A stretch of DNA of 64,000 bases, taken from positions 80,656-144,655 of the forward strand of contig JBMOMD010000036.1 of NCBI GenBank assembly GCA_049325295.1, given 5' to 3'. Source of the DNA: Nitrospirota bacterium (GTDB lineage: Bacteria; Nitrospirota; Nitrospiria; 2-01-FULL-66-17). Made by a program: the position numbers and the translations under genes. The notes beneath the pieces were generated by a model that worked only from the letters and a program-made list of their open reading frames with translations, had not been told where the DNA came from and ran no database searches. This document shows positions 45,922-56,294 of this stretch, piece after piece (position 1 is the first letter of the stretch; every line of letters starts with the position of its first letter).

Positions 45922-46007
45922 TGGTGCGAGAGGGGGGACTTGAACCCCCACGGGGGTGACCCACCAGATCCTAAGTCTGGCGCGTCTGCCAATTCCGCCA
46001 CTCTCGC
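45922..46007 (-). tRNA. tRNA-Leu (anticodon TAG), type II with long variable arm, CCA encoded
   Basis: The reverse complement folds with acceptor GCGAGAG/CTCTCGC, anticodon loop ctTAGga, long variable arm and T-loop TTCAAGT. Confidence 0.75.
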
Positions 46008-46131
46008 ACGTGTTGCCGCCAACAAACCTTCGCCTTCCGATGGCGCGCCCGCCGGTCCCTTGGCGCGCCCCGTTCGCAAACAAGTGTGTTGTTCCCTGAT
46101 CTGCCGTGCCCGGCGGCCCTGCGGAAAGGGG

Positions 46132-46207
<76 letters not shown>

Positions 46208-46221
46208 ACATGTATCGACAA

Positions 46222-46297
46222 TGGCGCGCCTGGAGGGAATTGAACCCCCGACACATGGCTCCGGAGGCCATTGCTCTATCCGCTGAGCTACAGGCGC
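46222..46297 (-). tRNA. tRNA-Arg (anticodon CCG), CCA encoded
   Basis: Acceptor GCGCCTG/CAGGCGC, anticodon stem ATGGC/GCCAT, loop ctCCGga. Confidence 0.75.
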
Positions 46298-46494
46298 ACG
46301 TCTCTGCCCCACGTGGACGAGCGCTCGGGTGATGAACCCCGCCAAACCCTGCGCCAAGCGCCCCCGAAAAGCCCGCGTATTCTACCGGAGCCCGAAACGG
46401 TTTGTCAAAACCAAGCAGTGCTCGGCCGCGAAAAACGCGTGGCGTCCATCGCCGGGTTGACCCGCTCCGATCCACGGCTATCCTTAGGGCACCC

Positions 46495-47973
46495 ATGATT
46501 CCACAACCCGCCTCACCGCAAACGCTCCGCGAGCCGGTCGAACACGATCTGCGGCAAATTGAACGACGCGAGTGGCAGTTGTGGGCGCTCACGCTCACCT
46601 TGCTCGTGGCATCGGGCGGAGTCACCGTGCTCCTGGCGTACCTCCTCGCGCAGACCGAGTCCGATCAACCGAATCTGTCTCGGCTCATGGCCACGCGTGG
46701 ACTGCCGGGTTTGGTCGTCCTCATCGGCATCTTTTGCGCCTACGTGCTTCACACCCGCGCCACCTTCGGGCGGATGCGGATGCTTTTCCAGAAACAGGCC
46801 ATGCGCGACTCCCTCACCGGCCTGTTCAATCGCCGGTATTTCAACGAACGCATGGGCGACACCTTGCTCCGCGCCGATCACACCGAAGGAATATTCGCCA
46901 TCTTGTTGTGTGATCTCGATCACTTCAAAGCCTTGAACGATACCCAGGGACATCAGACTGGGGACGAGGTGCTTCAGGAAGTCGGTAAAGCCGTTCTGGA
47001 AGCCACGCGTGGAGCGGACTTGGTGGTCCGATGGGGCGGAGACGAGATTCTCGTCGTGCTCACCAGGACGACGCGCGACGGGGTGATCACCGCGGGCGAT
47101 CGCATCCGCAAAGGCGTCGCCCTGGTCGGGGAACGGCGCCGGATTCCGCTCGACGTGAGCATCGGCGCCGCGTTGCACCCCGAGCATGGTCGCACCATCG
47201 AGGACCTCGTCCGCCTCGCGGACCGCGCGCTTTATATCGCCAAACGCGGTGGGGACAAAATCCATATCGGGGAGGAAGAATACCAATTGGACGACCACAC
47301 GGTGCAAACCGTGTTTCAACCGGTGGTTGACCGAACGTCCGGCGAAGTGTTGGGTTATGAAGCGTTAAGCCGCGACCCCCTTGGCAAGCTCAGCGTCGGC
47401 GAGCTGTTCCGCCGGTATCAGGCGGTGGGACAACTCCACGAACTGAAGTGTTTGTGTTTCCACGTCCAGCTTCGGGCCGCCGCCAGCGCGGGGCTCCGGC
47501 GCGTCTTCATCAACGTAGATTTTGCCGTCCTCGATCACCTGCACGTCGTCCCCAAACCCCCCGATATCGAGGTGGTCCTGGAAATTTCGGAAGCCGAAGC
47601 CTTGCACGACGTGGAGCGCCATCTCGATACCACCAGCGCCTGGCGCGCCGCCGGCTACAAATTCGCGATCGACGATTTCGGCGCCGGGTTCATTTCGCTC
47701 CCCTTCGTGGCGCGTCTGATTCCGGATTACATCAAACTGGACCGCGCCACGATTGTTCAGGCCGGAGCGTCCCGCCAATTCTTGACGTTTCTCCGCGACC
47801 TCGTCCTCGCGCTGCGCAACTACTCCAAGGAAGGCATCATCGCAGAAGGGATCGAAACCGCGGACGAACTCCAGGTCGTTCGCGACCTCGGGATCAGCCC
47901 GGTCCAAGGCTACTTGGTGGGCAAACCCGAAGCGTTGAAGGCACCCGCGACTCGCGACCGCCGCGCGGCGTAG
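46495..47973 (+). CDS. Membrane-anchored GGDEF-EAL protein (c-di-GMP cyclase/phosphodiesterase)
   Basis: Two N-terminal TM helices, GGDEF domain (RYFNE...RWGGDEILVV) and EAL domain (EALSR...AIDDFGAGF...EGIET). The start is assigned to the ATG at 46495; the 46402 alternative is not excluded. Confidence 0.8.
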   Translation: MIPQPASPQTLREPVEHDLRQIERREWQLWALTLTLLVASGGVTVLLAYLLAQTESDQPNLSRLMATRGLPGLVVLIGIFCAYVLHTRATFGRMRMLFQKQAMRDSLTGLFNRRYFNERMGDTLLRADHTEGIFAILLCDLDHFKALNDTQGHQTGDEVLQEVGKAVLEATRGADLVVRWGGDEILVVLTRTTRDGVITAGDRIRKGVALVGERRRIPLDVSIGAALHPEHGRTIEDLVRLADRALYIAKRGGDKIHIGEEEYQLDDHTVQTVFQPVVDRTSGEVLGYEALSRDPLGKLSVGELFRRYQAVGQLHELKCLCFHVQLRAAASAGLRRVFINVDFAVLDHLHVVPKPPDIEVVLEISEAEALHDVERHLDTTSAWRAAGYKFAIDDFGAGFISLPFVARLIPDYIKLDRATIVQAGASRQFLTFLRDLVLALRNYSKEGIIAEGIETADELQVVRDLGISPVQGYLVGKPEALKAPATRDRRAA

Positions 47974-47996: not shown

Positions 47997-48073
47997 TGGT
48001 GCGCCTGGCTGGAATCGAACCAGCGACCCACAGCTTAGAAGGCTGTTGCTCTATCCGACTGAGCTACAGGCGC
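47997..48073 (-). tRNA. tRNA-Arg (anticodon TCT), CCA encoded
   Basis: Acceptor GCGCCTG/CAGGCGC, anticodon stem ACAGC/GCTGT, loop ctTCTaa. Confidence 0.75.
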
Positions 48074-48171
48074 GTGTGTCCAGGCAAAGACGAGGGGAGA
48101 GCGGGTGAGGGGGTGAAAAGAACGTTCGCCCATTCTCCCCGTCGCCCACTCACCCCGTCGTCTTTAAAAAA

Positions 48172-48248
<77 letters not shown>

Positions 48249-49786: not shown

Positions 49787-49905
49787 AAAGTGGGGGCATT
49801 ATAGGAGAGGGGGTGGTAAAGATCAAACGGAGGGCGCGCCGTCCCATCGCGCCGAAGGCCGCCTCGCGCGTGACAAAGCAACCGGCCGAAGGCCGGCTCC
49901 ACGGA

Positions 49906-50664
49906 TCAAGCGGCGGCGGGCAACGACGACTCGTCGTCCCCACGACCACGGGACCGGCGGTCGCCGTTTCGGCGATCCTGGGTGCGCGGATTCAGGGGAA
50001 GCGACACCACGAACGTGGTTCCTCGACCGATCACCGACTCCACGGAGATCGTTCCGCGATGTTCTTCGACGACTTGGTGGCACGTCAACAGTCCCAGACC
50101 ACTGCCTTCGTGGCCTTTGGTCGTGAAAAACGGGGTAAACAGTCGTTCGAGATTTTCTTCCGAGATCCCCACTCCCGTGTCGGTGACACGCAGTTCCACG
50201 TGCGGCGTTGATCGAACCGTTGTGGCGCGGCTTGAAACCGTCAGCGTCCCCCCGGACGGCATGGCTTGAATCGCGTTGAGCATCAGGTTCAGGAACACTT
50301 GCTTCATGCGCTCCTGGTCCAGGTGAACCGGCCCCAGCGACGTATCCGGTTTCACTTCGATCGACACGCCCTTGGTGCGGGCCTGCGAGGTCAGCAGCAC
50401 CGCCATCTGCCCAAGCACGGCGTTGAAATCCACGGCCTCAAATACCGACGCGGACTCGCCCGTAAACTTAGAATACGTCAAGAGCTGACGAATCAGCCCC
50501 CGGATCCGCTCGACTTCCTTCACCGTCACCTGATACAACGTGCCCCAGTATTCGGAATCCTCGGACGTCTCCCGGCGTTTGGCCGGGAGCATTTGCAAAA
50601 AGGTTGAAATCGGCACCAAGGGATTGTTGATCTCGTGCGCGAGGCCGGCGGCCAGGGTCCCCAC
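49906..50664 (-). CDS. Histidine kinase core (HisKA plus HATPase_c) lacking its own sensor or N-terminus; in frame with the upstream receiver ORF across a single TAG
   Basis: H-box GLAHEINNPL, N-box LNLMLNAIQAM, G-boxes DTGVGI and GSGLGL. The ORF begins with GTG two codons after the receiver's TAG, in the same frame. Confidence 0.7.
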   Translation of the reverse strand: MGTLAAGLAHEINNPLVPISTFLQMLPAKRRETSEDSEYWGTLYQVTVKEVERIRGLIRQLLTYSKFTGESASVFEAVDFNAVLGQMAVLLTSQARTKGVSIEVKPDTSLGPVHLDQERMKQVFLNLMLNAIQAMPSGGTLTVSSRATTVRSTPHVELRVTDTGVGISEENLERLFTPFFTTKGHEGSGLGLLTCHQVVEEHRGTISVESVIGRGTTFVVSLPLNPRTQDRRNGDRRSRGRGDDESSLPAAA

Positions 50665-50670
50665 CGCGCT

Positions 50671-51144
50671 CTACCGATTGGCCCGCGCCACCCGTTTCAG
50701 GGTTTCGATTTTTTCTCCGTGAAGTCGTTCTCGTTCTTTGACGAGCACGTACCGCTCAATGCCGTCTCGAAACGCCATCTGCACCTCGCGCTCGTCGTAC
50801 GGCTTGGCCAGATAGCGGGAGACATTCCCCACATTGATCGCGTCCACCACGCTTTCCAGATCGGAATAGGCGGTCAACAGCATGCGCACCGTGTCCGGGT
50901 AGTTGGCCCGAACTTGCGCCAGAAATTGCGTGCCCGTCATATCGGGCATGCGTTGGTCCGAGAGCACCACCGCCACGTCCCGTTGCGCCAAGATCTCCAG
51001 TCCCGCTGCGCCGCTGGGCGCGGTCAGAATCGTGAAGTCACGCCGAAACTGCCGCTGCAAGGTCTCGATCGCGTAGGGTTCGTCATCCACGTACAGGATC
51101 GGATAGGCCCGGTAGTCCAAGTTCTCGAACAACGGTTCACTCAT
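50671..51144 (-). CDS. Single-domain response-regulator receiver (REC) protein; possibly the N-terminal part of a REC-HK hybrid interrupted by an in-frame stop
   Basis: Phospho-acceptor context ILYVDDEP...VVLSDQRMPDMTG...KP. The C-terminal helix ...LKRVARANR runs into TAG, then SAVGTLAAGLAHE of the next ORF. Confidence 0.8.
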   Translation of the reverse strand: MSEPLFENLDYRAYPILYVDDEPYAIETLQRQFRRDFTILTAPSGAAGLEILAQRDVAVVLSDQRMPDMTGTQFLAQVRANYPDTVRMLLTAYSDLESVVDAINVGNVSRYLAKPYDEREVQMAFRDGIERYVLVKERERLHGEKIETLKRVARANR

Positions 51145-51153
51145 CGTATTTCC

Positions 51154-54100
51154 TCACGCGGCCTTTGATAAACCACTTGCTACCGGAAGGACCACCGTGA
51201 ACTCCGCGCCCTGACCCGGCTCGCTGCGCACATCGATCCGGCCTCCGACATCCTGAATAATCTGATAACTGACCGAGAGCCCCAACCCGGTCCCTTTGCC
51301 CACGGGTTTGGTGGTGAAAAACGGCTCAAACAGCCGTGCCATGTGCTCGGGTTTGATGCCCGGTCCCGAATCCCGCACCGAGACGGTCACCGTGTGCTCA
51401 TGATCCCGCGATTCGACCCAAATCTCTCCGGTCGCGCCGATCGCCTGAACCGCATTTTGAAGCAGATTCATCCACACCTGGTTGAGTTTACCAGGTACCG
51501 CGAAAACCGCCCGCGTCGACTGCAGATCGGCGTGGACCACCAAACCCCGTCCCGCCATCGGGTGGATCAGGCTTAACGTAGATTCCAATCCGTCTTGCAC
51601 CGAGCACTCGATCTTCTGATTCTGATCCTTTCGGACAAACGCCTTCAGTTGACCGACAATTTCTTCCGTGCGCGTCACGCCGTTCTTCACGATTCCCAAT
51701 GACGCGTCCACGTCTTCTACGGAATCAACCGGCGTCCGGTCCTGGGGTAACAACGGCTTCAATTCCGCCCAGGCCCGCTGCAATACGATAAGACTATTCT
51801 TGGCAAAGCTGATCGGGTTGTTGATTTCGTGCGCCATGCCCGCGACCAACAGGCCGAGGCCGGCCATCTTCTCAGATTGAACCAACTGCGCCTGCGTATT
51901 TTTCAGTTCAGTCAGCGTCGCCTCCAACGCCTCATTGCGCTGTTGAATCTCCCGCTCCAATCGACGCAGCTCCAACAGCGATTTGATCTTGGCTCGCAGC
52001 TCTTGGGCGTTGAACGGTTTGGTCAAATAGTCGTCGGCCCCGTGCTCCAATCCCTCGATCTTCATCGCCATGTCGGCGCGAGCCGTGAGCAAGATAATCG
52101 GGATGTGCTTGGTCCGCTCGTCCCCGCGAATCGCTCGACACAACTGATACCCATCCATCTCCGGCATCATGACATCGGAAATAATGAGGTCCGGGAGTGC
52201 CTGGACCGCGACACCAACGCCCTCTCGACCGTTGGACGCCTTGAGCACCCGATAGTCGCCCTGTAATTCAAACGCGATGAACTCACGCATGTCCGGGTTG
52301 TCTTCGACGATCAAGACCTGTCGACCATTAGCGGGAGAGAAGCTCGGCTCGGGCGCGACCGTCGGTTCCGTTGACACCCCGCTTAGATGCCGCTCCGCGG
52401 CAACGTGCAGTTCGCGGGTCCAATCGTTCGTCGGTGCGGCTCCATCCGACTCCTGAGGAGCTTGCTCCTCAGTGGACTCATCGTGAGGCGCTTCAAGGAG
52501 CAACGGCAGCGTCACCGTAAACGTCGATCCACGCCCGGGTTCACTGTTCACGTTGATCCGCCCACCGTGAAGCTCCACGATTTCCTTCGCAAGGGCCAAG
52601 CCGATACCCGTTCCCTCATACCGGCGACTCGTCGTAGCGTCCACCTGTGAAAATCGCTTGAACAGTTTCGGTAAGTCGCTTTCTGAGATGCCGATACCCG
52701 TATCCATGACCTGCACCTGAAGCTGTCCCTCCGCCGACCGTCCCCATCGAAGGGTGACCCGGCCACCAGAGTTGCTGAACTTGATTGCGTTAAACAGCAA
52801 GTTCAAGACGACTTTTTCCAAACGATCGGGGTCGAAATACGATCGCTCCGGCAACTGCGACGCTTCTTCGCCAATTAGCTCGATGTGCTTTTTCTCGGCC
52901 ATCGGTGCAACCGAGGCGATGAGTCCACGAAAAAATGCCCCGATGTCTCCTGGCCGAAACTGTAGTTTCATGCGGCCCGCATCGAGTTTCGTGAGGTCGA
53001 GCAAGTTGTTGATTTGTTTGAGTAGGCGTAAACCATTCTGGTGCATTACGGACACATGCCGTCTCACCGACTCCGGAAGCGGTGTACCCTCTTCTTTGAT
53101 CAGGGACTCAAGCGGTGCAAGGATCAACGTGAGCGGCGTTCGCAACTCATGGCTCACCGCAGCGAAGAACTTAGTCTTCAACTCGTCCAACTCTTGGAGC
53201 TTTCGATTCGAGTCCTCAAGCTCCTGCGTCCTAAACTGAACCTTCTGTTCGAGAGAGTCATATAGCAACGAATTCTGGACGGCGATGGTAGTTTCAGCTC
53301 TTAACGCCAACAGAAAGTCGAGATCCAAACGGGTGTATCGGCTCAGATTCTCCTTCTCTCCGAGCACAATGACCCCAATCAGAGTCTCTTCATTCGTCAG
53401 TGGCATCGCGACTTGCGCATGGTGACGGATAAAGAACGGTTGATAGGCCGCCGGATCATCACTTTGAACGACACGCTGATTGGCCGCTATACGCTCCAAA
53501 AAGGCCTGCTCCTCTCCGGTAAATCCTCCCTCCCTTGTACGTAGGAATCGCGTGTCTTTGACATAAAGAGTCTCTCCTATGGTCCGGAGGGTCCGTGTAA
53601 TCAGTTCTCCAAAGCTCTTAATTGCCGAGATTTCCTGGACGAAACGCTGCAATTCATCCAGCATATCGAACTTCCGTCGCTGAAAATAGTGATCGACATA
53701 CGGCTGTACAACGCGGGCATACACGAGCATCAGTAGCAAGAGGGTGGCGAGAATGATATAGCTCGCTACTGGATGACTAAGGAGCCACGACCGGAGCCCC
53801 GCGAATAGCGCGACGATGGGAACGACTACAATCGCCGACGTCGCAAGCCAGAGCGCCGTCTTATGAACGACGGTTTTCACATCAAATGCGCCGTGCTGAA
53901 CAATTGCAAATCCCAGGATAGCGGTATATCCAATTTCAAAAATATAATAAAAAGGAGGCCCAGCCGATCCAATAAGGAAGACAAAGAGCGCATATAAAAT
54001 CACCGCCGTGAACCCGAGCCCGAAAGCAAAAAGCATGTATTGTAATTGAACGCGTTTTGTTCCAGTGCTTGATCGATATAGTGTGATTAGGCGATACGTT

Positions 54101-54555
54101 CCATAAGCGACTCCAAAGAGAAGATACAACGCAAAGAGTGGAAATGCCGGCCCAGGAATTTCGAGCATTGATGTTTCTGCGAACTGCAGATCCGACACAA
54201 CAAAGGGAGTCAGGACAAGAATTGCCATGAAAGGCGTGGCAACACTTAGAATTCTTCGAATATTCTTTGGAGGGGTCTTCTCCTCGCCGAGGGCACAATA
54301 AAAGCAAACATTGAAATAAACGAAAAAGACGCCGCCTAAAAACGATATTCGGTCTAAAGTGAGGGCCAGAAGATCGGGTCGACCGTAGAGTATGAGGAGA
54401 TCGCTCGCGTTCCAGAACGCGACAGACAAGTTAAACAAGCCAAAGTTTCGATTAATAGAATTCCTGTGGTCCTTCGACCAAACAAAGAGACCTGACGTCG
54501 CACATGAGACGAGACCTGCGATCGCAAAGGCGATTCGAACGTCAACTGGGGACAT
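51154..54555 (-). CDS. Large hybrid sensor: N-terminal multi-TM (about 7-8 helices) domain, GAF, HisKA/HATPase, REC, then a second HisKA/HATPase
   Basis: TM region 1-290. GAF. H-box AAVSHELRTPL with G-boxes. REC (LIISDVMMPEMDG). Second H-box GMAHEINNPI with second G-boxes (DSGPGI, GTGLGL). The 5' third of the gene is visibly lower in GC. Confidence 0.85.
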   Translation of the reverse strand: MSPVDVRIAFAIAGLVSCATSGLFVWSKDHRNSINRNFGLFNLSVAFWNASDLLILYGRPDLLALTLDRISFLGGVFFVYFNVCFYCALGEEKTPPKNIRRILSVATPFMAILVLTPFVVSDLQFAETSMLEIPGPAFPLFALYLLFGVAYGTYRLITLYRSSTGTKRVQLQYMLFAFGLGFTAVILYALFVFLIGSAGPPFYYIFEIGYTAILGFAIVQHGAFDVKTVVHKTALWLATSAIVVVPIVALFAGLRSWLLSHPVASYIILATLLLLMLVYARVVQPYVDHYFQRRKFDMLDELQRFVQEISAIKSFGELITRTLRTIGETLYVKDTRFLRTREGGFTGEEQAFLERIAANQRVVQSDDPAAYQPFFIRHHAQVAMPLTNEETLIGVIVLGEKENLSRYTRLDLDFLLALRAETTIAVQNSLLYDSLEQKVQFRTQELEDSNRKLQELDELKTKFFAAVSHELRTPLTLILAPLESLIKEEGTPLPESVRRHVSVMHQNGLRLLKQINNLLDLTKLDAGRMKLQFRPGDIGAFFRGLIASVAPMAEKKHIELIGEEASQLPERSYFDPDRLEKVVLNLLFNAIKFSNSGGRVTLRWGRSAEGQLQVQVMDTGIGISESDLPKLFKRFSQVDATTSRRYEGTGIGLALAKEIVELHGGRINVNSEPGRGSTFTVTLPLLLEAPHDESTEEQAPQESDGAAPTNDWTRELHVAAERHLSGVSTEPTVAPEPSFSPANGRQVLIVEDNPDMREFIAFELQGDYRVLKASNGREGVGVAVQALPDLIISDVMMPEMDGYQLCRAIRGDERTKHIPIILLTARADMAMKIEGLEHGADDYLTKPFNAQELRAKIKSLLELRRLEREIQQRNEALEATLTELKNTQAQLVQSEKMAGLGLLVAGMAHEINNPISFAKNSLIVLQRAWAELKPLLPQDRTPVDSVEDVDASLGIVKNGVTRTEEIVGQLKAFVRKDQNQKIECSVQDGLESTLSLIHPMAGRGLVVHADLQSTRAVFAVPGKLNQVWMNLLQNAVQAIGATGEIWVESRDHEHTVTVSVRDSGPGIKPEHMARLFEPFFTTKPVGKGTGLGLSVSYQIIQDVGGRIDVRSEPGQGAEFTVVLPVASGLSKAA

Positions 54556-54653: not shown

Positions 54654-56294
54654 TTATAGCAGGCCGTTCAAAGACTCAACTGTTTCAAAAAGAGGAGTGC
54701 CTCTCATTTCATCGAACGCCTGTAGCGCTCTCTCAATGTCGTCCGACGAATGCGCCGCTGACATCGTCAGCCGTATGAGGGCTTCGCCTCGTTTCACGGC
54801 AGGGCGAATAAACGTATTGACGTGAATGCCGCTTTTTTCAAGTCGTTTAGTCATTTCGTACGCGACATGTTCATGCCCCACTCGTATCGCAATAATGGGA
54901 GACTGCCCACCGACTGGGTGGTACCCCAGCGCCTCAAGGCCGGATTTCATAGTTGTGACATTTAACCAAAGCCGCTCCCTTAGATAGCGTTCCGTACGAA
55001 TAATCCGCAGCGCGGTGAGGGCACCAGCCGCCATCGCTGGGGGTAATGCAGTCGTAAAGATAATACCTCGGGACATGTGCCGCAGGTAATCCGACAGATG
55101 CTGTTCACAGGCTATAAATCCGCCGGGGCTCGCGAGTGCCTTGCTGAACAGCCCCAGGTATATATCTATCTGGCCCTCGAGGCCAAAGTGTTCCGCTGTC
55201 CCCGCGCCAGTCGGGCCAAGGAGTCCGAACCCATGTCCGTCATCTAGCATAATCGGGGTTCCGTTTGCCGTCGCTATGGCCTTTATTTCAGGGAGTGAAC
55301 CGAGATCTCCATGCGTGCTGTAGACGCCCTCCACCAAAATCAATGTTCGGGGGGTATCGACCTTGAGAAGCTTCCTCTCAAGATCTTCCGCCGAATTATG
55401 GCGAAACCGTAAGAGCGTGGCTCCGCTTGCCACGCAGCCGTCTATCATACTTGCATGAACCTTTTCGTCAGCCACCGCGGCGTCTCCTTTTCTCAGGAGA
55501 CACGAGAGAACAGCGAAGTTTGCGAGGTATCCGCTCGGGAAGACAAACGCTGCCTTGGCACCTACAAACTCTGCCAGTTCCGCTTCCAGTTGTTCGTGGA
55601 TAGGGTTCGTGCCGTTGACCGCGCGCGAGCCTGTCGCATGGGTTCCATACTTGCGTACAGCCTGAATGACGGCTTCTTTGACGCGGCCGTCATGCGATAA
55701 ACCAAGGTAATCTTTTGACCCAAATGACACCAGCTCGCGACCATCCATGATGACGCGCACCGCAGAGATCCCCTCGCTGCGCCGGCAGACCGTCGAAATC
55801 TGGTCCCACGCATGCGCCCGGGCCGCAAATGCAATCGACTCGGCAAAGATGTCCGCCTTTCTCCGTCTCTCTCGCAACCTCTTATTCTCGATGCCAGTGG
55901 CATCCAGCAGCCGTCTCTCCGCTTTACGACGGCAACGCATCAGTCCTGGGGATAAGCCGCTTATAAATGTATGGACCTTTCGCCGACCATCCTCTTCAGG
56001 AAATGCAATTTCCCCACCATATGCCATCGTATTCGGGTCGACACCTTGCCTATGAAGAATTTTGATCCTCACATGAGCCGAACGGCTATCAGGCAAAATA
56101 AGGTCCGCTTCTTCTTCAGTCTGGTCAAAGCCAGGTCCCATTCTGAAGGTAAGACCATATCGGCCGATGTTCCAGACTTGTCCGGTAATCTTCGTACCCG
56201 CAACGCCGGTCATTCGCACCATCACAGGAACAGGCATGTGCTCGACTCCATATCGAGGATGCCTGCGTCTCTGAAACGTGAGCTGAGATTCCAA
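54654..56294 (-). CDS. PilZ-like N-terminal domain fused to a class-II PLP-dependent alpha-oxoamine synthase (BioF/Kbl/SPT/CqsA family)
   Basis: The N-terminal roughly 140 aa have RRRHPRY (RxxxR) and a degenerate DxSxxG (NIGRYG). The AOS domain has FGSKDYLGLS, the PLP-lysine context STHGDLGSL...GLFSKAL, and glycine-rich loops. It lies 98 nt upstream of the hybrid HK on the same strand. Confidence 0.8.
   Translation of the reverse strand: MESQLTFQRRRHPRYGVEHMPVPVMVRMTGVAGTKITGQVWNIGRYGLTFRMGPGFDQTEEEADLILPDSRSAHVRIKILHRQGVDPNTMAYGGEIAFPEEDGRRKVHTFISGLSPGLMRCRRKAERRLLDATGIENKRLRERRRKADIFAESIAFAARAHAWDQISTVCRRSEGISAVRVIMDGRELVSFGSKDYLGLSHDGRVKEAVIQAVRKYGTHATGSRAVNGTNPIHEQLEAELAEFVGAKAAFVFPSGYLANFAVLSCLLRKGDAAVADEKVHASMIDGCVASGATLLRFRHNSAEDLERKLLKVDTPRTLILVEGVYSTHGDLGSLPEIKAIATANGTPIMLDDGHGFGLLGPTGAGTAEHFGLEGQIDIYLGLFSKALASPGGFIACEQHLSDYLRHMSRGIIFTTALPPAMAAGALTALRIIRTERYLRERLWLNVTTMKSGLEALGYHPVGGQSPIIAIRVGHEHVAYEMTKRLEKSGIHVNTFIRPAVKRGEALIRLTMSAAHSSDDIERALQAFDEMRGTPLFETVESLNGLL

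What the first reader, a model, noticed from the sequence alone, without database searches (positions are those of the whole stretch)
50662..50673. A single in-frame TAG separates the receiver ORF from a histidine-kinase core: possible REC-HK hybrid, pseudogene, sequencing error or readthrough
The REC ORF (50671-51144, minus) ends ...LKRVARANR-TAG. The next two codons (AGC GCG) and then a GTG open the HisKA/HATPase ORF (49906-50664) in exactly the same frame: R-*-S-A-V-G-T-L-A-A-G-L-A-H-E-I-N-N-P. The kinase ORF has no sensor, no TM and no dimerisation helix of its own. The helix ending the REC ORF runs straight into the H-box helix. Without the stop the product would be a canonical REC-HisKA-HATPase protein. 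This may be a recent nonsense mutation, an assembly error, or programmed stop-codon readthrough.
Basis: seen in the sequence. Interest (0 to 1): 0.6.

Follow-up and report, generated by a model that had tools for sequence, protein, structure and literature searches.

The report
Nonsense-interrupted receiver–histidine kinase gene
One premature TAG stop codon, most simply a T-to-A change in a leucine codon, cuts an otherwise intact receiver-controlled histidine kinase gene of a Nitrospirota genome in two; this is an ordinary recent gene disruption, not a new coding trick.

Summary
On the minus strand a 157-codon receiver ORF (50674-51144) ends in TAG (50671-50673). Six bases later, in the same frame, a GTG (50662-50664) opens a 252-codon HisKA+HATPase ORF (49906-50664).

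- **Relatives are fused.** Every relative examined across the junction reads straight through as one REC-HisKA-HATPase protein of about 393-413 aa: 34 aligned proteins, six contig-end fragments, and 18 further metagenome loci. They carry Leu (rarely Met) at the stop position. Gene neighbourhood, checked in two relatives, is conserved.
- **Origin of the stop.** The four closest relatives carry TTG or ATG there, so TTG to TAG is a single-base change.
- **The stop is probably real.** A second assembly (Logan, SRR32167792) is identical over all 1794 aligned bases and also has TAG.
- **No sign of decay.** The kinase half keeps every invariant catalytic residue, and its dN/dS (0.09-0.16) matches that of intact pairs. 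The stop is therefore recent, or the halves still work.
- **No support for recoding.** TAG ends other ORFs in the window, no other gene is split, the window has no CUA tRNA, and no RNA structure or Shine-Dalgarno precedes the GTG.
- **Family.** The intact gene has the Rec-DHp-CA architecture of Leptospira LvrB. The stop falls on the residue equivalent to LvrB L149, at the signalling-helix/DHp junction.

Verdict: an ordinary, lineage-specific nonsense mutation of low interest.

The parts
49906..51144 (-). Whole interrupted gene: a Rec-DHp-CA (REC-HisKA-HATPase) histidine kinase of 412 codons with one internal TAG
   Evidence: Translation. Orthologues of 393-413 aa are 49-90% identical and colinear.
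50674..51144 (-). 5' half: receiver domain plus most of the signalling (alpha-S) helix, 157 codons. NCBI annotates it as the separate protein MFZ5876865.1, 'response regulator'.
   Evidence: Pfam Response_reg 5.2e-20 over residues 16-123. The invariant residues D20, D21, D63 and K114 are present.
50671..50673 (-). Premature stop codon TAG at codon 158, where relatives have Leu or Met
   Evidence: Sequence. The position is Leu in 32 and Met in 2 of 34 orthologues. The closest relatives' DNA has TTG (two loci) or ATG (two relatives) there. All 18 further metagenome loci have Leu codons. The Logan assembly L001 also has TAG.
50662..50670 (-). AGC GCG GTG: Ser159, Ala160 and Val161 of the ancestral protein. 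The GTG is the start codon used to call the downstream ORF.
   Evidence: The column is Val in most orthologues, with occasional Met or Ile. Pairing of the upstream 17 nt to the anti-Shine-Dalgarno sequence is only -3.0 kcal/mol, close to the median (-2.7) for all start-codon triplets in the window.
49906..50664 (-). 3' half: DHp (HisKA) plus catalytic HATPase domain, 252 codons plus the TGA stop. NCBI annotates it as MFZ5876864.1, 'sensor histidine kinase NtrB'.
   Evidence: Pfam HisKA 6.1e-11 and HATPase_c 1.1e-28. H170, N286, N290, D322/G324/G326 and G347/G349/G351 are intact.
51151..51155 (-). Shine-Dalgarno-like GAGGA 6 nt upstream of the receiver ATG, overlapping the stop codon of the upstream gene
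   Evidence: Sequence. Duplex energy is -6.2 kcal/mol, within the best 10% of all start-triplet contexts in the window.
51154..54555 (-). Upstream gene of the same cluster: a 1133-aa hybrid kinase with 7TM, HisKA, HATPase, REC, and a second HisKA-HATPase. It ends 9 nt before the receiver ATG.
   Evidence: ORF and Pfam. A gene with the same domain series, minus the 7TM region, sits upstream of the intact orthologue in L085.
49885..49897 (-). Terminator-like GC-rich hairpin just after the kinase stop codon
   Evidence: Consensus scan. This is a pattern match only, and the count does not exceed that of shuffled sequence.

Best explanation
This is a real, recent, lineage-specific nonsense mutation. 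Most simply it is TTG (Leu158) to TAG by one T-to-A change, in a gene that is a single Rec-DHp-CA 'Rec-controlled' histidine kinase in every examined relative.

The stop falls inside one long helix, 12 residues before the phospho-accepting His170. This is the junction between the signalling helix and the DHp bundle, equivalent to L149 of Leptospira LvrB.

Inferred consequences:
- Ribosomes starting at the well-placed GAGGA/ATG make a 157-residue receiver with a helical tail and terminate at TAG.
- The kinase core is no longer coupled to its receiver. It is made at most at low level, either by re-initiation at the GTG 6 nt downstream or by basal amber readthrough.
- Functionally the gene is a fresh pseudogene, or a just-split gene whose kinase has lost receiver control.

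The stop, the fused ancestry and the lack of decay are shown. The fate of the two products is inferred.
For: - **Fused relatives.** In the best 120 database hits, every protein that covers more than 90% of the query has all three domains in one chain of 393-413 aa. The shorter hits that were inspected are contig-end truncations, and six of those seven still span the junction.
- **Residue at the site.** The stop column is Leu in 32 and Met in 2 of 34 orthologues. The DNA of relatives has TTG, ATG or other Leu codons, and none of the 4 close relatives or 18 further loci has a stop.
- **Positional orthology.** The order hybrid kinase, REC-HK, RNase PH, Ham1 and then GGDEF-EAL on the opposite strand is the same in the window and in L083 and L085. 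L085 continues with trigger factor and ClpP.
- **Independent assembly.** The Logan contig from run SRR32167792 is identical over all 1794 aligned bases, including TAG, and does not break at the site.
- **Not a blend of alleles.** No relative has an A at codon position 2.
- **No decay in the kinase half.** It has 0-1 unusual substitutions at conserved columns, no more than intact orthologues show. Its dN/dS is 0.09-0.16, against 0.11-0.14 among intact pairs.
- **Structure.** The AlphaFold model of intact orthologue P0002 has one helix over residues 114-187, covering the stop position (L154) and the His (H166).
- **Homology to LvrB.** LvrB (PDB 8vc9) aligns over the full length, and the stop matches LvrB L149. 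That residue lies in the L149-M152 knee described in PMC13269768.
Against: - No read data could be inspected, so allele frequency and base quality at 50672 are unknown.
- The two assemblies probably share the same sample, so they are not independent of a systematic read error.
- The complete lack of further damage is equally compatible with a split gene that is still under selection.
- Several genuine genes in the window also lack a strong Shine-Dalgarno. Its absence before the GTG therefore does not prove that the kinase ORF is untranslated.
Confidence: 0.77

Rival explanations
1. Functional gene fission. The stop is real, and both halves are now used as separate proteins: a stand-alone receiver with a coiled-coil tail, and a DHp-CA kinase core translated by termination-reinitiation at the GTG 6 nt after the TAG. 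The kinase would be freed from receiver control.
For: - The TAG-N6-GTG spacing is compatible with translational coupling.
- The kinase half shows purifying-selection-like dN/dS and no unusual substitutions.
- In LvrB the catalytic domains are held inactive by contacts with the alpha-S helix (PMC13269768), so a core lacking alpha-S could be active.
Against: - The arrangement is seen in one population only. Every relative examined across the junction is fused.
- The GTG is simply the ancestral Val codon.
- There is no Shine-Dalgarno before the GTG (-3.0 kcal/mol, about the median of random contexts) and no promoter-like site inside the receiver ORF.
- A pairwise dN/dS over dS of about 0.6-0.9 cannot detect relaxation that began very recently.
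Confidence: 0.12
2. Sequencing or consensus error. The organism actually has TTG (Leu) and an intact 412-aa protein.
For: - A single base separates TAG from the TTG seen in close relatives.
- The source is a metagenome-assembled genome, and only one sample is known to carry this contig.
- The gene is otherwise perfect.
Against: - Two different assemblers give the same base within a region identical over all 1794 aligned bases.
- No other gene in the 64-kb window is interrupted, so the assembly is not generally error-prone.
- The related population in the same run has ATG at this codon, which cannot blend with TTG to give TAG.
Confidence: 0.08
3. Programmed recoding. TAG is decoded as an amino acid, by a suppressor or pyrrolysine tRNA or by context-driven readthrough, to give the full-length kinase by design.
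For: - The frame is preserved and the downstream half is intact.
- The base after the stop is A. From general knowledge of E. coli amber suppression, not tested here, this is a relatively leaky context.
Against: - The stop is not conserved in any of the relatives examined.
- TAG closes about 14 of 58 long ORFs in the window, and no other gene carries an in-frame TAG.
- None of the 7 tRNAs in the window has a CUA anticodon.
- The 161 nt around the site fold no better than shuffled sequence (z = -0.72).
Confidence: 0.03

Closest known systems
LvrB of pathogenic Leptospira (PDB 8vc9, 9qqw, 9qr2), the prototype Rec-controlled histidine kinase (PMC13269768)
   Same: Both share the Rec-alphaS-DHp-CA architecture in one chain of about 380-410 aa. 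The intact orthologue P0002 aligns over residues 11-380 to LvrB 5-376 (E 2e-26), and the H-box AHEINNPL is identical. The predicted continuous helix from Rec alpha-5 through alpha-S to DHp alpha-1 matches the LvrB description. Like lvrB, the gene sits directly next to a hybrid histidine kinase gene.
   Different: The similarity is distant. The score on the NCBIfam LvrB model is 115 bits against a cut-off of 500, so this is not an LvrB equivalog. The host is Nitrospirota rather than Leptospira, and no LvrC-like partner was identified. In this window the chain is broken by TAG at the residue equivalent to LvrB L149.
PhcR of Ralstonia solanacearum/pseudosolanacearum (the phcBSRQ operon)
   Same: [quoted passage not shown] IMG labels some orthologues of this gene 'probable response regulator PhcQ'.
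   Different: No orthology was shown and the label is an automatic one. The genomic context differs, with no phcB or phcS methyl-ester quorum-sensing genes seen here.
Ordinary nonsense-mutation pseudogenes or split genes in bacterial genomes and MAGs
   Same: A single base change creates a premature stop in an otherwise conserved gene. Annotation pipelines then call two ORFs, here MFZ5876865.1 and MFZ5876864.1.
   Different: Nothing of substance differs. The only particular feature is that the cut falls exactly at a domain junction and leaves two foldable modules.

Membership tests
Rec-controlled histidine kinase (Rec-DHp-CA, LvrB type) | N-terminal receiver domain with the phospho-acceptor Asp and conserved Lys | tested here: met
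   Pfam Response_reg scores 72 bits against a cut-off of 30. D20, D21, D63 and K114 are invariant and present.
Rec-controlled histidine kinase (Rec-DHp-CA, LvrB type) | HisKA/DHp domain with an H-box histidine | tested here: met
   Pfam HisKA scores 42.7 bits against a cut-off of 26.9. H170 lies in AHEINNPL, which is identical to the LvrB H-box.
Rec-controlled histidine kinase (Rec-DHp-CA, LvrB type) | Catalytic HATPase_c domain with the N, G1 and G2 boxes | tested here: met
   Pfam HATPase_c scores 100 bits. N286/N290, D322-G324-G326 and G347-G349-G351 are invariant and present.
Rec-controlled histidine kinase (Rec-DHp-CA, LvrB type) | Continuous signalling helix linking Rec alpha-5 to DHp alpha-1 | tested here: met
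   The AlphaFold model of orthologue P0002 has a helix over residues 114-187 (mean pLDDT 81.7, but only 62-69 over residues 141-170). From K114 to H170 is 56 residues, or 8 heptads (positions). This fits the heptad preference reported in PMC13269768, although the paper's exact counting rule was not reproduced.
Rec-controlled histidine kinase (Rec-DHp-CA, LvrB type) | All domains in one polypeptide | tested here: not met
   The window has TAG at codon 158. The feature is met in every orthologue examined across the junction. The window gene is therefore a disrupted member of the family.
LvrB equivalog (NCBIfam NF047466) | Score at or above the curated cut-off of 500 bits | tested here: not met
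   P0002 scores 115 bits, although the match covers profile positions 4-376 of 377. The architecture is the same, but this is not the same orthologous group.
Programmed stop-codon readthrough or TAG recoding | The stop codon is conserved at the site in relatives | tested here: not met
   No relative has a stop at the site. All have Leu or Met codons.
Programmed stop-codon readthrough or TAG recoding | In-frame TAG in other genes, or loss of TAG as a terminator | tested here: not met
   TAG ends about 14 of 58 long ORFs. The six other same-frame adjacent ORF pairs are distinct genes.
Programmed stop-codon readthrough or TAG recoding | A cognate tRNA (CUA anticodon) or pyl genes | tested here: inconclusive
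   None of the 7 tRNAs in the window qualifies. The rest of the genome could not be examined.
Programmed stop-codon readthrough or TAG recoding | A stimulatory RNA structure near the stop | tested here: not met
   The z-score is -0.72, and 44 of 200 shuffles fold at least as well.
Naturally separate receiver gene plus kinase gene | Orthologues are two genes with their own translation signals | tested here: not met
   All orthologues are fused. The GTG has no Shine-Dalgarno above background.

The most novel reading that the evidence does not exclude
This could be a gene fission caught at its first step. The nonsense codon sits exactly at the alpha-S/DHp knee of a Rec-controlled kinase. It would therefore produce a stand-alone receiver with a coiled-coil tail, which could still accept phosphate from the neighbouring hybrid kinase. 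It would also produce a DHp-CA core translated by termination-reinitiation 6 nt downstream, freed from the alpha-S clamp that keeps LvrB-type kinases off. That would be a one-base rewiring of a phosphorelay, maintained by selection.
Probability: 0.1. Interest if true: 0.4.

Novelty: new member of a known kind. Interest (0 to 1): 0.12.

Why it matters
The practical value is for annotation. The two NCBI entries, 'response regulator' MFZ5876865.1 and 'NtrB' MFZ5876864.1, are two halves of one interrupted Rec-DHp-CA kinase and should not be read as a conventional two-component pair.

The finding also shows that Nitrospirota carry a conserved, syntenic LvrB-type Rec-controlled kinase next to a double-core hybrid kinase. 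That is a modest lead for signalling studies in this phylum.

The stop codon itself does not challenge any current understanding.

Tried and rejected
- **Genome-collection scan.** Orthologous DNA was obtained through exact-protein look-ups instead.
- **Search for an intact allele of the same strain.** An exact 43-nt pattern around the site, with NNN at the codon, found nothing in JGI metagenomes. No intact allele of this strain was found, and none appeared in the protein database either, where the best fused hit is 90% identical.
- **Apparent second kinase-only homologue.** P0100 (249 aa) looked like a second split, but it starts 11 nt from a contig end and is a truncation.
- **Code reassignment or suppressor.** Rejected because TAG is used normally as a stop and the window has no CUA tRNA.
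- **Readthrough-stimulating RNA structure.** Rejected, with z = -0.72.
- **Internal promoter for the kinase ORF.** No promoter-like site was found inside the receiver ORF.
- **Source record.** The NCBI contig of the source MAG could not be retrieved. Only the Logan contig was returned.

Full report
**Observation.** Reading the minus strand of 49800-51300 and listing ORFs confirms the finding exactly. An ATG at 51144 opens a 157-codon ORF ending ...LKRVARANR-TAG, with TAG at 50673-50671. The next codons are AGC GCG and then GTG (50664-50662). That GTG opens a 252-codon ORF ending in TGA at 49906-49908. Translating straight through gives one frame with a single asterisk. Pfam assigns Response_reg (5e-20) to the first ORF, and HisKA (6e-11) plus HATPase_c (1e-28) to the second. 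With Leu put in place of the stop, all three domains are found in one 412-residue chain. One detail of the finding needs correcting. The kinase ORF does hold its own dimerisation domain, since the HisKA profile is matched at positions 3-64 of 66. What it lacks is the helix that precedes that domain.

**What relatives look like.** Among the best 120, every protein that covers more than 90% of the query is a single REC-HisKA-HATPase chain of 393-413 aa, mostly from Nitrospirota MAGs and metagenomes. The closest is 90% identical.

The only 100% match is the 252-aa kinase ORF itself. It comes from an NCBI Nitrospirota MAG contig of 277,690 bp, where the two ORFs are annotated separately as MFZ5876865.1 'response regulator' and MFZ5876864.1 'NtrB'. 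Seven of the shorter hits were inspected and all are contig-end truncations. P0100, which looked like a second kinase-only protein, starts 11 nt from a contig end. Six of the seven still read through the junction with Leu or Met.

In an alignment of 34 orthologues (49-90% identity), the stop column is Leu in 32 and Met in 2, with no gap at the junction. At the DNA level the four closest relatives carry TTG (L083, L084) or ATG (L082, L085) in an otherwise near-identical context. A degenerate DNA scan of metagenomes recovered 18 more loci. All have Leu codons (CTG 10, CTC 3, TTG 2, CTT 2, CTA 1) and open frames continuing on both sides. TTG to TAG is a single T-to-A change.

**Orthology.** The gene order is conserved. 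In the window, a hybrid kinase is followed by the REC-HK gene, RNase PH and Ham1/RdgB, with a GGDEF-EAL gene next on the opposite strand. Loci L083 and L085 show the same order, and L085 continues with trigger factor and ClpP. These are therefore positional orthologues, and the ancestral state is a fused gene.

**Is the stop real?** A Logan assembly of run SRR32167792 contains a 1917-bp contig that is identical to the window over all 1794 aligned bases. It includes TAG and does not break at the site. The same run also holds a second, related population whose gene is intact (P0004, L086). That population has ATG at this codon, and no relative has A at codon position 2, so the TAG cannot be a blend of alleles. 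No other gene in the 64-kb window is interrupted. Six other pairs of same-frame adjacent ORFs are clearly distinct genes, for example a TPR protein followed by an apparent MutY, and an apparent YidC followed by MnmE; these identities were read from the junction peptides, not scanned. An assembler artefact is therefore unlikely. A systematic read error cannot be excluded without the reads.

**How old is it?** The window sequence keeps every invariant residue of the family: D63, K114, H170, N286/N290, DxGxG and GxGxG. At columns that are at least 90% conserved, it shows 0-1 unusual substitutions in the kinase half, no more than intact orthologues show. Pairwise dN/dS for the kinase half is 0.09-0.16 in comparisons involving the window, against 0.11-0.14 among intact genes. 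There is thus no detectable relaxation. Either the stop is very recent relative to the divergence from the nearest sampled relatives (dS about 0.6-0.9), or the halves remain useful.

**Recoding and separate translation.** TAG closes about 14 of 58 long ORFs in the window. None of the seven tRNAs in the window has a CUA anticodon. The 161 nt around the stop fold no better than shuffled sequence (z = -0.72). The stop is not conserved in any relative. Programmed readthrough or reassignment therefore has no support.

For independent translation of the kinase ORF, the 17 nt before the GTG pair with the anti-Shine-Dalgarno sequence at only -3.0 kcal/mol. That is close to the median (-2.7) for all start-like triplets in the window. 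The receiver ATG, by contrast, has GAGGA at -6.2 kcal/mol, in the best 10%. The GTG is simply the ancestral valine codon. No promoter-like site lies inside the receiver ORF. A terminator-like hairpin follows the kinase stop, and a promoter-like site precedes rph. Because several genuine genes here also lack a strong Shine-Dalgarno, this evidence argues against an evolved start but does not exclude re-initiation 6 nt after the stop.

**Where the cut falls in the protein.** An AlphaFold model of the intact orthologue P0002 (87% identical; mean pLDDT 81.7) has one uninterrupted helix from residue 114 to 187. In P0002 numbering the stop position is L154 and the phospho-acceptor is H166, so both lie within it.

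The Protein Data Bank holds a full-length homologue of the same architecture, LvrB of Leptospira (8vc9). It aligns over residues 11-380 of P0002 with E 2e-26. In that alignment the stop corresponds to LvrB L149, and the GTG valine corresponds to M152.

- The alpha-S helix (R129-L149) continues directly from Rec alpha-5.
- Residues L149-M152 form the knee between alpha-S and DHp.
- In the inactive state the catalytic domains are clasped onto alpha-S.
- Rec phosphorylation drives alpha-S coiled-coil formation and releases a catalytic domain, which can then phosphorylate H161.

By analogy, the TAG severs the Rec-alphaS module from the DHp-CA core precisely at the coupling element. This is an inference from the alignment, not a test. 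The score on the NCBIfam LvrB model is 115 bits against a cut-off of 500. The Nitrospirota protein therefore shares the architecture, and probably the mechanism, but is not an LvrB equivalog. PhcR of Ralstonia has a similar domain composition (PMC8578825). The 'PhcQ' label on some orthologues is only an automatic one.

**Most likely working.** In relatives, the upstream hybrid kinase (7TM, HisKA, HATPase, REC, HisKA, HATPase) plausibly phosphorylates the receiver of the Rec-DHp-CA kinase, which then switches on its own kinase core. This is inferred from adjacency and from the LvrA/LvrB analogy.

In this population the chain stops after R157. The receiver with its helical tail is still made, from a good ribosome-binding site. 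The kinase core is uncoupled from it. The core is either not made or made at low level by re-initiation or basal readthrough.

I rate the explanations as follows:
- A real recent nonsense mutation that leaves a fresh pseudogene or non-adaptive split: 0.77.
- A selected functional split: 0.12.
- A sequencing or consensus error: 0.08.
- Programmed recoding: 0.03.

**Verdict.** The feature is an ordinary single-base gene disruption in a known kind of signalling protein. Its interest is low. Its main use is to correct the two-gene annotation and to flag a conserved LvrB-like module in Nitrospirota.

Noticed in passing
window 54654-56294 (-): This 546-aa class I/II aminotransferase (Pfam Aminotran_1_2, 2e-47) looks like an alpha-oxoamine synthase. 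It carries an N-terminal extension of about 185 aa. The extension gives a weak, sub-threshold PilZ match (E 0.013, 16 bits against a cut-off of 22.5) that nevertheless spans profile positions 1-100 of 102. A c-di-GMP-binding domain fused to this enzyme class would be unusual.
   Followed up: partly
window 51154-54555 (-); L085 3605-5980: The upstream hybrid kinase has two complete kinase cores flanking a receiver (HisKA-HATPase-REC-HisKA-HATPase), plus an N-terminal HisKA_7TM region, for 1133 aa in total. The syntenic protein in the relative L085 is only 791 aa and shows no 7TM hit, so the sensor module differs between close relatives.
   Followed up: partly
L086 and L001 (both Logan contigs from SRR32167792): The same sequencing run contains two related Nitrospirota populations. 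One has the intact gene (P0004, 81% identical, also found in MAG GCA_049325335.1). The other has the TAG allele of this window. This pairing would make a read-level comparison straightforward.
   Followed up: partly
window 50671-50673 versus LvrB L149 (PDB 8vc9): The stop coincides with the last heptad residue of the signalling helix, at the alpha-S/DHp knee (L149-M152) defined in the 2026 LvrB structure paper. The downstream GTG coincides with LvrB M152. The mutation therefore separates two structurally self-contained modules, which is probably a coincidence.
   Followed up: yes
window 49798-49826 (-): A strong sigma-70-like site (TTGATC, 17-nt spacer, TATAAT; 10 of 12 matches) lies between the kinase gene's terminator-like hairpin and rph. 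This suggests that rph-rdgB is a separate transcription unit from the kinase cluster.
   Followed up: no
window 45922-46297 and 47997-48246 (-): Two small tRNA clusters flank the GGDEF-EAL gene at 46402-47973. The first holds Leu-tag, Lys-ctt and Arg-ccg, and the second holds Arg-tct and Pro-tgg. Several spurious long ORFs overlap them on both strands.
   Followed up: no
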